Shown piece after piece: positions 45,401 through 48,400 of a stretch of 64,000 bases of DNA. The stretch's first letter is position 1. Each line of letters opens with the position of its first letter. The position numbers are program-made. Origin of the DNA: Escherichia coli. Its GTDB lineage: Bacteria; Pseudomonadota; Gammaproteobacteria; Enterobacterales; Enterobacteriaceae. The DNA lies in the NCBI RefSeq assembly GCF_030384885.1, contig NZ_CP128613.1. One strand, 5' to 3'.

Positions 45401-48400
45401 CATCGTATTTGGCACTTCCTGTGCCTCTTCAGCGTGTGTACTGCGCGGCGCACCACAGAAAGTAATACCGTACATTTTGACGAAGCACATTACTGCCAGC
45501 CCACCAGTGACAGCCAGCATCACCATAGCAATAGGACCCGCAAGTTGTAGCGCTACGGCTTCCACACGACTTAGTGAGAACAGCGACTGCCAGGTGTACC
45601 ATTCGCTGATAAAACCATTCAGCGGAGGAATGGCTGATATCGCGAGGCAACCAATCAGGCATGCTGCGGCTGTCCACGGCATCCGTTTTGCCAGTGCCCC
45701 CATTTTTTCCATGTCGTGGGTATGCAAACGCGAAATAATCGCACCCGCGCCGAGAAATAGCAGCCCTTTGAACAGCGCATGGTTGAGCAGATGAAACAGT
45801 GCGCCGAGCAGTCCAACCACGGTGAGCAGCGGGTCGTGCAGTGACAGACCGACCATGGACACACCGACCGCCAGCAAAATAATGCCGACGTTTTCGACGG
45901 TACTCCAGGCCAGCAGCCGTTTGATATCCTGTTCCGCCAGCGCATACAGCACGCCCAGGAGCGCGGAGATTGCGCCGATCGCCATCACCAGAATGCCCCA
46001 CCACAGCGGCAAACCCGTTTGCGCCAGCAGATCCATCGCCACTTTCAGGATGCCGAAAATACCGATTTTGACCATTACGCCAGACATCAACGCCGAAGCG
46101 TGCGATGGTGCGGCAGGGTGAGCGCGCGGCAACCAGCTGTGCAACGGCATCATCCCGGCTTTCGCGCCAAAACCGAAGAAGGCCAGCAGGAACACCGCCG
46201 ACGCCAGCCCCGGAGAAAGTGAAAGCGTGCGGAAACTGGCAAAATCGAGGTTGCCGCTTTCGCGCCACATCAGCAAGAAGGCGATCATAATCAGCACCGA
46301 TCCGGCGTGAGCGATAAAAAAGTAGAGCATGCCAGCGTTGATTGACGTTTTATCCTGCCTGGCAATGACCAGAAACCAGGAAGACAGCGACATCATTTCA
46401 AACAGCACGATGAACCAAAAAGCGTTGTCCATCACCAGCAGGGCAACCATCGATGCGATGAAAAGATTCATAAAGAAGCCCATCGCCGCCGCGCCTTTGC
46501 CCTCGTATTCGCGCATATAAGTCAATGAATAGAGCGAACAAACCACCACCAGCAAGGAGATAACCAGCACCATAAATGCCGAGAGGCTATCTATTCGCAG
46601 GGTTAAATCGGCAAAGTCAAAAGGCGTGGCAAAACGGGCGACTAAAGTTACGCCTGCATGTAATTGCGTAATTCCGCTGATGATGCCAATCGCGCCGCCC
46701 ACCAGCGATGTGATGCCGGAAAGCTTAATAGCCAGTCTGTCCAGACCGAGTAAAAACAGCGAAGCCAGACTGGCAAACAGATAGAGGATCAGCGACCAGG
46801 TTAATAATTGCAGGGCATCCATTAGCGTTGCTCCTGAGTGAGGGAAAGGGGATCCTCCCCGCCATTGGCAAACCAGCTTGCGGCAAGGCGCTGTTTTTCT
46901 TTCATCTGACGTTGCAGGCTATCGTCGGTGATCAGCCGTAACGCATGATTCGGGCAAGCGCGAACGCAGGCCGGACCTTCTGGCAAGAAATCACACAGGT
47001 CGCATTTCACCGCGACGGTCTGGACACCCGGTTCCCAGCGCAGCAAAGCATGTTGGGTCGGCGCGTTTTCTTCGCCGTCTTTGAGTGAGCCGTCAGCCTG
47101 AAAAACATATTGCGCAGGGGCATTCACCGGACGGCTTCCTGAAGCGCTGATTGCGCCAAATGGGCAGACCACGGCGCAAAGCTTGCAGCCAATACAGAGG
47201 CTTTCGTTGAGTTGGATCGCATCATCTCTCTGGGAGATGGCATTGACCGGGCAGACCTGCAGGCAAGGGGCTTCCTCACAGTGATGACACACGACAGGGG
47301 CAGTGAGTGTTGACGTCTTCGCCAGGGCCAGGCGCGGGTGTTGCTGTAAACCTTGCGTTTTATGCACGTCCGAACAGGCAGCGAGACAGGTATTACATCC
47401 TGTACACCACAGTGGTTCGGCCACCACAAAGCGGTTCATGTCGGCTCCTTGAAAATGATATGAAACATTGCATTTCATATTGCATAAAGGATGCCAGTCT
47501 GATTAATTTAATATATTCAATAAGTTATGTGTTAACTGGATTCTGAACGGTACAAAAATGATGGTCATTAACGTTCAGCAATAAATGGATTCGACACCCG
47601 TGTCGCAGGGGAAAGCGAGAATGTGATCTTGATCACGAGAAGTGAGGTGTGCTGGCCGCAAGCGCAGCCAGCACTGAATGGAGCAAAGTAATCAGGCGTG
47701 TTCTTTCAGCCAGTTCAGCACAACGTCGTGGTGATTGCTGGTTTTGAAATCGTCAAAGACATGTTCGATTTTGCCATCAGCGTCAATCAGGAAGCTGATG
47801 CGATGAATACCATCGTAGGTTTTGCCCATGAAGGACTTTTCACCCCAGACGCCGAATTGTTCGCACACCTGGTGGTCCTCATCAGACAGGAGCGTAAAGT
47901 TAAGCAGCTCTTTTTCCGCAAAACGAGAGAGTTTTTCGGGTTTATCGGTGCTGATACCCAGCACATCAACGCCCGCTTTTTTCAATTCATCCATGTTATC
48001 GCGTAAGCCGCAGGCCTGTACGGTACAGCCGGGAGTCATGGCTTTTGGGTAAAAATAAACCAGAACACGCTGTCCCTGGAAGTCGGTCAAATTAACTTGT
48101 TCTCCGTCTTGATCCGGCAAGCTAAATTTCGGTGCGATATCACCGGCTTTCAGTGGATTCATTACTTAACTCCATCCTGTTCATCATGTGGGGAATAATT
48201 GACGACGTTTATACTGCCTTGTGCATTGAGTTCTGTACATAGGGCTTTAAACGCTTGCTCAATATTTGCTGCATCCGCAGAGGCGGGACTGTGGGCGGTG
48301 ATCTGAATATGCAACTGTGCAGCCCGTTCATTTTCAGCAGGTTGCGTGCGCGACACCAGCTCCGCAATGTTCATGTGGTGCGCGTCGAAAAGTGCCGTGA

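What the first reader, a model, noticed from the sequence alone, without database searches (positions are those of the whole stretch)
47440..47691. hyf operon control region: sigma-54 promoter plus upstream palindromes
A good -24/-12 element (TGGCATcctttaTGCA, minus strand, 47481-47496) sits about 40 nt upstream of the hyfA ATG, which has a strong AAGGAG ribosome-binding site. Further upstream are two inverted repeats, CGACAC-cc-GTGTCG (about 47592-47605) and GTGATC-tt-GATCAC (about 47626-47639), at a distance suitable for an enhancer-binding activator (HyfR or FhlA). A GC hairpin at about 47650-47675 is probably the bcp terminator. The operon itself (12 genes, 34680-47439) is complete, with overlapping stop/start junctions throughout.
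Basis: partly seen in the sequence, partly recalled or inferred. Interest (0 to 1): 0.3.

Follow-up and report, generated by a model that had tools for sequence, protein, structure and literature searches.

The report
Known hyf operon promoter region
This is the already characterised control region of the E. coli hydrogenase-4 (hyf) operon: a sigma-54 promoter with an IHF-like bending site, one activator (FhlA/HyfR-type) site and a CRP site. It is ordinary, except for one strongly conserved 16-base block whose function I could not identify.

Summary
The window is E. coli and 47440-47691 is the bcp-hyfA intergenic region, 98% identical to K-12. The -24/-12 element TGGCATCCTTTATGCA (47496-47481, minus strand) is the known hyfA sigma-54 promoter. 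It is bound in K-12 sigma-54 ChIP-seq, is the top RpoN gSELEX peak, and is conserved in more than 10 genera.

The two palindromes are different things. GTGATC-aa-GATCAC (47636-47623) is a CRP site. The identical 16-mer is the site listed at the hyfA CRP ChIP-seq peak in ETEC, and its TGTGA/TCACA halves are conserved around a variable spacer. CGACAC-gg-GTGTCG (47605-47592) fits a CGWCA-N4-TGNCG motif. That motif is 57-fold enriched upstream of hyfA sigma-54 promoters and also occurs upstream of the FhlA-dependent hydN and fdhF promoters, so it is the likely FhlA/HyfR enhancer.

The GC hairpin belongs to bcp: strains lacking hyf keep it. The operon remark is partly wrong: 34680-47439 holds 11 genes, focB lies at 33810-34658, and only 4 of 11 junctions overlap.

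Verdict: already known, low interest.

The parts
47649..47674 (-). GC-rich hairpin 17 nt after the bcp stop codon (47692-47694). It is the bcp 3' end or terminator-like element and is not part of hyf control.
   Evidence: 11-nt arms, 91% complementary, 4-nt loop. (-22.9 kcal/mol, z = -4.6). No U-tract, and 0 terminators called. GC hairpins with T-runs sit at the same place in Citrobacter and Kosakonia but with unrelated sequence. The hairpin is retained in hyf-less ST131, where homology to the window ends at about 47641.
47622..47637 (.). CRP site CGTGATCAAGATCACA (9 of 10 consensus positions of TGTGA-N6-TCACA), centred near -159.5.
   Evidence: The identical 16-mer is listed as the site under the hyfA CRP ChIP-seq peak in ETEC H10407 (PMC4287617). 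hyfA is a known CRP target that was also found by gSELEX (PMC3105977). The half-sites are conserved and the spacer varies across Citrobacter and Kosakonia at the same distance. It is invariant in 6 E. coli strains.
47590..47605 (.). Enhancer (UAS) palindrome CGACAC-gg-GTGTCG(aA), centred near -128.5. It is the likely FhlA/HyfR binding site.
   Evidence: It is the only CGWCAN4TGWCG match in the window. CGACACnnnTGYCGnA is invariant across three genera. The motif CGWCA-N4-TGNCG occurs 32 times in 6 kb upstream of hyfA -24 elements against 15 times in 160 kb elsewhere. Its centre lies 100-102 nt from TGGCA in four genera. The same layout occurs upstream of K-12 hydN (CGTCACtaGTGTCG) and fdhF (CGTCAaaacTGACG).
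47552..47567 (-). Invariant 16-nt block TGACCATCA(T/C)TTTTGT, at -97 to -82. Function unexplained.
   Evidence: It is the longest invariant run of the intergenic alignment (9+6 nt; a run of at least 9 arises in 43 of 20000 shuffles). It always lies 70-72 nt upstream of TGGCA in Escherichia, Citrobacter and Kosakonia and is absent in the other genera. It matches no motif that I tested.
47543..47578 (.). E. coli-specific inverted repeat CTGAACGGTA / TAACGTTCAG flanking the invariant block.
   Evidence: 10-nt arms, 90% complementary, 16 nt apart. It is invariant within E. coli, but the right arm is not conserved in Citrobacter or Kosakonia.
47515..47527 (-). IHF-like site TAACTTATTGAAT (8 of 9 specified positions of YAANNNNTTGATW), at -45 to -57, between the enhancer and the promoter.
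   Evidence: Matches scoring 7-9 of 9 start 30-31 nt upstream of TGGCA in Escherichia, Citrobacter, Kosakonia, Morganella, Providencia and Pectobacterium, and 41-43 nt upstream in most Atlantibacter and Dickeya loci. The TGA core is invariant.
47481..47496 (-). Sigma-54 promoter, -24/-12 element TGGCATCCTTTATGCA.
   Evidence: K-12 sigma-54 ChIP-seq peak OS23, motif ATGGCATCCTTTATGCA, 31 nt from hyfA, flagged as experimentally confirmed in EcoCyc (PMC4591121). It is the highest RpoN-holoenzyme gSELEX peak (PMC8743547). A sigma-54 element sits upstream of hyfA in about 30 loci from more than 10 genera.
47469..47470 (-). Inferred transcription start, giving a 30-nt 5' UTR.
   Evidence: Inferred from the position of the -12 GC (47483-47482). 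This agrees with my recollection of the Skibinski 2002 abstract (start 30 bases upstream of hyfA; paper not held). The conserved AAyGTTT at 47469-47463 lies here.
47443..47451 (-). Ribosome-binding region CAAGGAGCC (AAGGAG at 47450-47445).
   Evidence: GGAGCC is invariant across three genera.
33810..47439 (-). hyfABCDEFGHIJR-focB operon, 12 genes. hyfR (34680-36692) encodes the operon's own FhlA-like activator.
   Evidence: ORFs. PGAP annotation of the 100%-identical strain 2013C-4282. HyfR and FhlA are 51% identical, with a near-identical C-terminal helix-turn-helix.

Best explanation
The region is the control region of the E. coli hydrogenase-4 operon and is built like a classical sigma-54 promoter.

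Proposed mechanism:
- RNA polymerase carrying sigma-54 sits as a closed complex on TGGCAT-N6-TGCA (47496-47481) and would start transcription at about 47469-47470.
- It cannot open the DNA unaided. An FhlA-family AAA+ activator binds the palindrome CGACAC-gg-GTGTCG about 100 bp upstream of the -24 element. The activator can be FhlA, or the operon's own HyfR, whose DNA-binding helix is nearly identical.
- IHF bound at TAACTTATTGAAT (47527-47515) bends the DNA so that the activator can reach the polymerase.
- CRP-cAMP binds the second palindrome, a near-consensus CRP site about 31 bp further upstream. This places the operon under catabolite control.
- The GC hairpin upstream of all this is the 3' end element of bcp and marks the edge of the hyf insertion.

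Basis of each step:
- Shown by published data retrieved here: sigma-54 and CRP occupancy of these exact sequences.
- Shown by comparison here: conservation and fixed positions of all the elements.
- Inferred: which protein binds the CGACAC palindrome, IHF binding, and how CRP helps a sigma-54 promoter.
For: - Identity: the region is 100% identical to an E. coli strain and 98% identical to K-12, between bcp and hyfA.
- Sigma-54: ChIP-seq and EcoCyc-confirmed status, the top gSELEX peak, and conservation in more than 10 genera.
- CRP: an identical 16-mer under the ETEC ChIP-seq peak, known-target status plus gSELEX recovery, and conserved half-sites with a variable spacer.
- Enhancer: 57-fold enrichment of CGWCA-N4-TGNCG upstream of hyfA sigma-54 promoters, a fixed distance of 100-102 nt in four genera, and the same layout at K-12 hydN and fdhF.
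- HyfR and FhlA: 30 of 38 residues identical in the helix-turn-helix region, with recognition helix KRTTLLSRM(Q/K)RLGI.
- IHF-like site: 8 of 9 consensus positions, at a conserved position in 6 or more genera.
- Polymorphisms among 6 E. coli strains all fall outside these elements.
- Hairpin: retained in strains lacking hyf.
Against: - The published 13-site FhlA matrix scores the CGACAC palindrome at only 5.3-5.6 bits of 16.6, and scores the CRP palindrome higher at 9.6-9.8. The same matrix also scores the known hydN and fdhF regions at only 7.5-8.6.
- E. coli has a single palindrome, whereas enhancer-binding proteins often use two or more sites.
- The best-conserved block (47567-47552) has no role in this model.
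- By matrix score alone the sigma-54 site ranks 9th in the window.
- I could not read the two primary papers (Skibinski 2002, Self 2004). The start site, HyfR binding to the promoter region and the CRP requirement rest partly on my memory of their abstracts.
Confidence: 0.85

Rival explanations
1. One reading: both palindromes are binding sites for the enhancer-binding activator (HyfR or FhlA).
For: Both lie 100-140 bp upstream of the -24 element. The published FhlA matrix gives its best intergenic score (9.6-9.8 bits) to TGATCAAGATCACA.
Against: The 16-mer is a 9-of-10 CRP consensus match and is the site listed under a CRP ChIP-seq peak. In Citrobacter it is a perfect TGTGA-N6-TCACA with no CGNCA/TGNCG pentamers. 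It is absent from hyfA promoters outside the bcp-linked lineage, which still keep the CGWCA-N4-TGNCG enhancer. The FhlA matrix score ranks only 28th in the window.
Confidence: 0.07
2. The GTGATC..GATCAC palindrome is an FNR site (TTGAT-N4-ATCAA) that confers anaerobic control, rather than a CRP site, or in addition to being one.
For: GTGAT-caag-ATCAC matches 8 of 10 FNR core positions. An FNR site was predicted computationally at hyfA, with earlier hints of FNR regulation (PMC3688515). The Kosakonia left half is TTTGA, which is more FNR-like.
Against: The same paper reports that the hyfA site is silent, with no FNR ChIP-seq peak. CRP is bound there in vivo in ETEC. The Citrobacter sites carry the CRP-discriminating TGTGA.
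Confidence: 0.1
3. The CGACAC palindrome is not the activator site. FhlA/HyfR instead bind the invariant block TGACCATCAYTTTTGT (47567-47552) or need both elements.
For: The block is the most conserved element. It lies 70-72 nt from TGGCA, the distance at which Morganella carries its enhancer palindrome (centred 70 nt upstream). It loosely resembles GAC(C)ATCAT in the hyc-hyp FhlA region CGACATCATCGACA. From my memory of Skibinski 2002, HyfR activates hyf but barely affects hyc, so some hyf-specific determinant must exist.
Against: The block is not palindromic and contains no CGNCA/TGNCG pentamer. It scores 2.3 bits with the FhlA matrix. It is absent from Atlantibacter, Pectobacterium and Dickeya hyfA promoters; Pectobacterium hyf activity nevertheless depends on a HyfR-family regulator (PMC7384014). 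The palindrome is conserved far more widely.
Confidence: 0.15
4. The GC hairpin is a regulatory structure of hyf (for example an attenuator or a protein site) rather than the end of bcp.
For: It lacks the U-tract of a canonical intrinsic terminator, so its role as a terminator is not proven.
Against: It lies about 180 nt upstream of the hyf start site and 17 nt after the bcp stop codon. Strains without any hyf genes keep it. Other genera have unrelated GC hairpins followed by T-runs at the same place after bcp.
Confidence: 0.05

Closest known systems
hyfA promoter (hyfAp) of E. coli K-12, described by Skibinski et al. 2002 and Self et al. 2004 and listed in EcoCyc
   Same: It is the same locus with 98% identical sequence. 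Every element discussed here is identical in K-12. Sigma-54 ChIP-seq, RpoN gSELEX and CRP data exist for it.
   Different: There are seven substitutions outside the core elements. One is the base just 5' of TGGCAT, which is C here and A in K-12.
FhlA-dependent sigma-54 promoters of the E. coli formate regulon (fdhF, hydN-hypF, hyc, hyp)
   Same: Each has a -24/-12 promoter, an AT-rich intervening region, and an upstream enhancer made of CGWCA/TGWCG pentamers. hydN has CGTCAC-ta-GTGTCG and fdhF has CGTCA-aaac-TGACG, the same 14-bp layout as hyf.
   Different: hyf has a single palindrome with a GC-rich spacer and sits further from the promoter (centre 102 nt from TGGCA, against 68 for hydN and 78 for fdhF). 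It also has a CRP site upstream of the enhancer and an invariant block that the others lack. The hyc-hyp region uses direct as well as inverted pentamer repeats.
hyfA promoters of other Enterobacterales (Citrobacter, Kosakonia, Atlantibacter, Dickeya, Pectobacterium, Morganella, Providencia, Sodalis)
   Same: They share the sigma-54 element, an IHF-like YAANNNNTTGATW site 30-43 nt upstream of it, and one to three CGWCA-N4-TGNCG palindromes.
   Different: Only the bcp-linked lineage (Escherichia, Citrobacter, Kosakonia) has the CRP site and the 16-nt block. Morganellaceae place the enhancer only 57-70 nt from TGGCA.

Membership tests
Sigma-54 (RpoN) dependent promoter | GG and GC dinucleotides separated by 10 nt within TGGCAC-N5-TTGCW | tested here: met
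   TGGCATCCTTTATGCA. GG at 47495-47494 and GC at 47483-47482. It is the only TGGCAYN5WTGCW match in the window. RpoN matrix score is 12.2 of 21.2.
Sigma-54 (RpoN) dependent promoter | Sigma-54 holoenzyme occupies the site | tested here: met
   Established by literature look-up for the identical K-12 16-mer: ChIP-seq peak OS23 (PMC4591121) and the top gSELEX peak (PMC8743547). It was not measured on this strain.
Sigma-54 (RpoN) dependent promoter | Transcription requires an enhancer-binding ATPase and starts about 12 nt downstream of the GC | not testable with these tools
   The primary papers are not held. From my memory of the Skibinski 2002 abstract, the start lies 30 bases upstream of hyfA and depends on sigma-54, FhlA and HyfR.
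CRP (cAMP receptor protein) binding site | Match to TGTGA-N6-TCACA | tested here: met
   CGTGATCAAGATCACA matches 9 of 10 positions.
CRP (cAMP receptor protein) binding site | Half-sites conserved while the spacer drifts in orthologous regions | tested here: met
   TGTGATCGCAATCACA, TGTGACTAATATCACA and TTTGACCGCGATCACA occur at the same distance in Citrobacter and Kosakonia.
CRP (cAMP receptor protein) binding site | CRP bound in vivo or in vitro | tested here: met
   Established by literature look-up: the ETEC H10407 CRP ChIP-seq table lists this exact 16-mer for hyfA (PMC4287617), and gSELEX recovered hyfA (PMC3105977).
FhlA/HyfR enhancer (UAS) | Sequence layout shared with regions upstream of known FhlA-dependent promoters | tested here: met
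   hyf has CGACACggGTGTCG, hydN has CGTCACtaGTGTCG and fdhF has CGTCAaaacTGACG.
FhlA/HyfR enhancer (UAS) | High score with the published FhlA position weight matrix (PMC7658346, Table 2) | tested here: inconclusive
   The score is 5.3-5.6 of 16.6 bits, although all 7 core positions (G2 W3 C4 T10 G11 W12 C13) match. The matrix gives only 7.5-8.6 bits to the known hydN and fdhF regions, so it discriminates poorly.
FhlA/HyfR enhancer (UAS) | Match to the quoted consensus CATTTCGTACGAAATG (Leonhartsberger 2000, as cited in PMC4987338) | tested here: inconclusive
   The best intergenic match has 6 mismatches of 16. The known hyc-hyp, fdhF and hydN regions also reach only 6-8 mismatches, which is background level.
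FhlA/HyfR enhancer (UAS) | Conserved, position-constrained and enriched upstream of orthologous sigma-54 promoters | tested here: met
   5.3 sites per kb upstream against 0.094 per kb elsewhere. The centre lies 100-102 nt from TGGCA in four genera. CGACAC is invariant.
FhlA/HyfR enhancer (UAS) | Two or more activator sites to nucleate the oligomer | tested here: not met
   There is only one CGNCA-N4-TGNCG in the E. coli intergenic region. Sodalis and Dickeya have two or more.
FhlA/HyfR enhancer (UAS) | Direct binding of FhlA or HyfR to this sequence | not testable with these tools
   This needs a footprint or gel shift. The HyfR and FhlA DNA-binding helices are nearly identical, so both could plausibly read the same site.
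IHF binding site | Match to WATCAANNNNTTR (here on the other strand, YAANNNNTTGATW), located between enhancer and promoter | tested here: met
   TAACTTATTGAAT matches 8 of 9 positions at -45 to -57. Equivalent sites scoring 7-9 of 9 lie at a fixed offset in 6 or more genera. Binding itself was not tested.
Rho-independent terminator (of bcp) | Stable GC-rich hairpin just downstream of the stop codon | tested here: met
   -22.9 kcal/mol, z = -4.6, 17 nt after the TGA.
Rho-independent terminator (of bcp) | U-rich tract immediately 3' of the hairpin | tested here: not met
   The tail is ACCTCACTTCTCG and the scan called 0 terminators. The Citrobacter and Kosakonia counterparts do have T-runs.

The most novel reading that the evidence does not exclude
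The invariant 16-nt block TGACCATCAYTTTTGT (47567-47552) may be the binding site of a regulator not yet assigned to hyf, or a determinant that lets HyfR rather than FhlA drive this promoter. The block lies between the enhancer and the IHF-like site. It occurs only in the lineage that carries hyf next to bcp together with a CRP site. If it is such a site, it could explain why hydrogenase-4 is silent under laboratory conditions.
Probability: 0.25. Interest if true: 0.45.

Novelty: already known. Interest (0 to 1): 0.17.

Why it matters
The finding re-identifies a textbook-type sigma-54 control region that has been studied since 1997-2004, so it adds little. Three small points have some value:

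- The two palindromes are assigned to different proteins, CRP and an FhlA-family activator, rather than both to the activator.
- Cross-genus footprinting gives a cleaner FhlA/HyfR enhancer motif (CGWCA-N4-TGNCG at a fixed distance) than the published matrix or the quoted consensus.
- A perfectly conserved 16-nt block has no assigned factor. The hyf operon is notoriously silent in E. coli, so an unassigned conserved element in its promoter is a reasonable place to look for the missing signal.

Tried and rejected
- **FhlA matrix:** the published matrix (PMC7658346) was scanned over the window and over the K-12 hyc-hyp, fdhF and hydN regions. It discriminates poorly, so it was not used as a decisive test.
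- **Quoted FhlA consensus:** CATTTCGTACGAAATG, taken as a contiguous 16-mer, matches neither hyf nor the known targets better than background.
- **Terminator and sigma-70 scan of 47300-47900:** nothing was called. A sigma-70 promoter predicted by others (ATGACC-17-CAGAAT; PMC3946193) overlaps the invariant block, but its -10 element is not conserved. I rejected it as the reason for the block's conservation.
- **Block as a leader peptide (MTI(I/T)FV...):** rejected. Third codon positions are invariant, the would-be start codon varies (ATG, TTG, CTG), there is no Shine-Dalgarno sequence, and the block lies upstream of the transcription start.
- **Block as another known site:** IHF gives 5-6 of 9 positions. 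A Fur box gives 14 of 19 in E. coli, but the flank contributing to that match is not conserved. CRP half-site, NarL, IscR and marbox comparisons were also made. All of these were by eye, and none was convincing.
- **Rfam scan of 47300-47900:** only a chance-level PhrS hit inside bcp.
- **Primary papers:** Skibinski 2002 and Self 2004 are not held.
- **Literature search for other factors bound at bcp-hyfA:** a ChIP-exo search found nothing.
- a mistaken, irrelevant protein query against the phage collection. It has no bearing on this finding.
- **Genome-contig scan with HyfA:** it returned no Escherichia species other than what I fetched separately, so close relatives such as E. albertii and E. 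fergusonii were not compared.
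Full report
**Identity of the region.** The window is E. coli. Bases 47400-47740 are 100% identical to strain 2013C-4282, and 5424 of 5426 complete E. coli genomes match at least part of the stretch. The annotated neighbours are bcp and hyfA. The stretch aligns to the K-12 bcp-hyfA intergenic region with 7 substitutions and no indels. The minus strand of the window is the sense strand of both genes.

**Check of the observation.**
- Present as described:
  - TGGCATCCTTTATGCA is at 47496-47481 with GG-N10-GC spacing.
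  - AAGGAG is at 47450-47445, 5 nt before the ATG at 47439.
  - CGACAC-2-GTGTCG is at exactly 47592-47605.
- Small coordinate offsets:
  - The hairpin is at 47649-47674. It folds at -22.9 kcal/mol, z = -4.6.
- No single motif is beyond chance over 64 kb:
  - The sigma-54 site ranks 9th by the 186-site RpoN matrix.
  - The three pattern searches gave 1 hit against 0.53 expected, 1 against 0.25, and 5 against 1.9.
  - The case therefore rests on co-location, conservation and published binding data.
- The operon side remark is partly wrong:
  - 34680-47439 holds hyfA to hyfR, which is 11 genes.
  - focB is at 33810-34658.
  - In the PGAP annotation of the identical strain, 4 junctions overlap and 7 are gaps of 4-29 nt.

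**The promoter.**
- The K-12 16-mer core is identical. It lies under sigma-54 ChIP-seq peak OS23, whose motif is 31 nt from hyfA, and is flagged as an EcoCyc experimentally confirmed promoter (PMC4591121).
- The bcp-hyfA spacer is the strongest RpoN-holoenzyme gSELEX peak in the genome (PMC8743547).
- None of the higher-scoring intragenic matrix hits in the hyf genes appears in that ChIP-seq paper.
- The -12 GC places the start at 47469-47470. This agrees with my memory of the Skibinski 2002 abstract (start 30 bases upstream of hyfA). That paper and Self 2004 are not held.
- The in-frame ATG at 47478, which the ORF lister uses, lies inside the -12 element and upstream of the start. The annotated 205-aa HyfA is therefore the right gene model.

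**Comparative footprinting.**
- A scan of one genome per species with HyfA returned 45 loci.
- Loci whose downstream gene is a full-length HyfB homologue carry a sigma-54 element 54-152 nt upstream of hyfA. Loci of the hyc type, where the gene is internal to the operon, do not.
- Citrobacter and Kosakonia share the bcp-hyfA arrangement. Their Bcp is 95-98% identical to the window's, but HyfA is only 63-71% identical, so their spacers are orthologous and well diverged.
- In the 7-sequence alignment, 77 of 263 intergenic columns are invariant and they cluster. There are six runs of at least 5 nt, which 0 of 20000 column shuffles reach.
- The clusters are:
  - TGA...ATCACA (47635-47622)
  - CGACACnnnTGYCGnA (47605-47590)
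  - TGACCATCAYTTTTGT (47567-47552)
  - the TGA of TTGA (47519-47517)
  - TGGCA...TTrTGC (47496-47482)
  - AAyGTTT at the start site
  - CAAGGAGCC plus the ATG
- Among six E. coli strains, every polymorphism falls outside these elements.

**The two palindromes are different things.**
- GTGATC-aa-GATCAC is the core of CGTGATCAAGATCACA, a 9-of-10 match to the CRP consensus.
  - The identical 16-mer is the site listed for the hyfA CRP ChIP-seq peak in ETEC H10407 (PMC4287617).
  - hyfA is listed as a known CRP target that genomic SELEX also recovered (PMC3105977).
  - In Citrobacter the half-sites are perfect and the spacer differs, which is the usual signature of a real CRP site.
  - An FNR site has been predicted at hyfA, but that site is reported as unoccupied (PMC3688515).
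- CGACAC-gg-GTGTCG fits a motif, CGWCA-N4-TGNCG, that I derived from the other species.
  - It occurs 32 times in the 6 kb lying within 200 nt upstream of hyfA -24 elements, against 15 times in the other 160 kb of the same loci. That is a 57-fold enrichment.
  - Its centre is 100-102 nt from TGGCA in Escherichia, Citrobacter, Kosakonia and Atlantibacter.
  - The same layout lies upstream of the K-12 FhlA-dependent hydN (CGTCACtaGTGTCG) and fdhF (CGTCAaaacTGACG) promoters.
  - HyfR, encoded in this operon, and FhlA are 51% identical overall and 30 of 38 identical across the C-terminal helix-turn-helix. Either could read this site.
- The published tools were not decisive on the CGACAC palindrome.
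  - The 13-site FhlA matrix (PMC7658346) gives the palindrome 5.3-5.6 bits, and gives the known hydN and fdhF regions only 7.5-8.6.
  - The quoted consensus CATTTCGTACGAAATG (PMC4987338) matches none of the known targets as a contiguous sequence.

- TAACTTATTGAAT (47527-47515) matches 8 of 9 positions of the IHF consensus. Matches of 7-9 of 9 start 30-31 nt upstream of TGGCA in six genera, and 41-43 nt upstream in most Atlantibacter and Dickeya loci. This is where a DNA-bending site is expected in a sigma-54 promoter.
- The longest invariant stretch of the whole spacer is TGACCATCAYTTTTGT.
  - It always lies 70-72 nt from TGGCA.
  - It occurs only in the three bcp-linked genera, which are the same ones that carry the CRP site.
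  - I could not match it to any motif, and its conservation pattern is not codon-like.
  - In E. coli alone it is flanked by a 10-nt inverted repeat.

**The hairpin.** It starts 17 nt after the bcp stop codon and has no U-tract. About 1100 E. coli genomes match only the bcp end of the query. In ST131, bcp is followed directly by yfgO. Homology to the window ends at about 47641, between the hairpin and the CRP site. Citrobacter and Kosakonia have unrelated GC hairpins with T-runs at the same place. The hairpin therefore belongs to bcp, and the hyf segment begins with its CRP site.

**Verdict.** This is the known hyfA sigma-54 promoter with its IHF-like site, FhlA/HyfR-type enhancer and CRP site. 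The only open item is the invariant 16-nt block.

Noticed in passing
window 47552-47567 (minus strand): The 16-nt block TGACCATCAYTTTTGT is the best-conserved element of the bcp-hyfA spacer across Escherichia, Citrobacter and Kosakonia. It always lies 70-72 nt upstream of TGGCA and matches no motif that I tested.
   Followed up: partly
window 47458-47480: A perfect 8-bp inverted repeat ATATGAAA-7-TTTCATAT spans the predicted transcription start, together with a direct repeat of ATGCAAT. It is invariant in the six E. coli strains compared and not conserved in Citrobacter or Kosakonia. The half-sites resemble NikR's GTATGA/TCATAC, but with 11 rather than 16 nt between them.
   Followed up: partly
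window ~33775-47641; locus L055 1535-1660: The whole hyf operon, including its control region from the CRP site onward, is a presence/absence segment in E. coli. About 1100 of 5424 genomes match only the bcp end. In ST131, bcp is followed directly by yfgO.
   Followed up: partly
window 36253-36268, 42993-43008 (minus strand); 47330-47345 (plus strand): Sequences inside hyfR, inside hyfD and antisense within hyfA score higher with the RpoN matrix than the real hyfA promoter does. None of them is listed as a sigma-54 ChIP-seq site in K-12.
   Followed up: partly
window 47476-47478: An in-frame ATG 39 nt upstream of the annotated hyfA start makes the mechanical ORF 218 aa long. This ATG lies inside the -12 promoter element, upstream of the transcription start, so it cannot be used.
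   Followed up: yes
window 47497: The base just 5' of TGGCAT is C here, and also in EC571 and O157. It is A in K-12, M505 and 537-20. C is closer to the usual CTGGCA form of sigma-54 promoters.
   Followed up: no
loci L005-L048, 200 nt upstream of the -24 elements: The enhancer palindromes fall into two flavours. CGACAC..TG(C/T)CG occurs in Escherichia, Citrobacter, Kosakonia, most Atlantibacter loci and Uliginosibacterium. CGTCAY..TG(T/A)CGA occurs in Morganella, Providencia, Dickeya and Sodalis, and at E. coli hydN and fdhF. The split may reflect HyfR-type versus FhlA-type specificity.
   Followed up: no
window 14392-14407, 42304-42319, 48657-48672, 63166-63181: Four further matches to the CRP consensus with one mismatch each. 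One lies inside hyfE and one inside gcvR.
   Followed up: no
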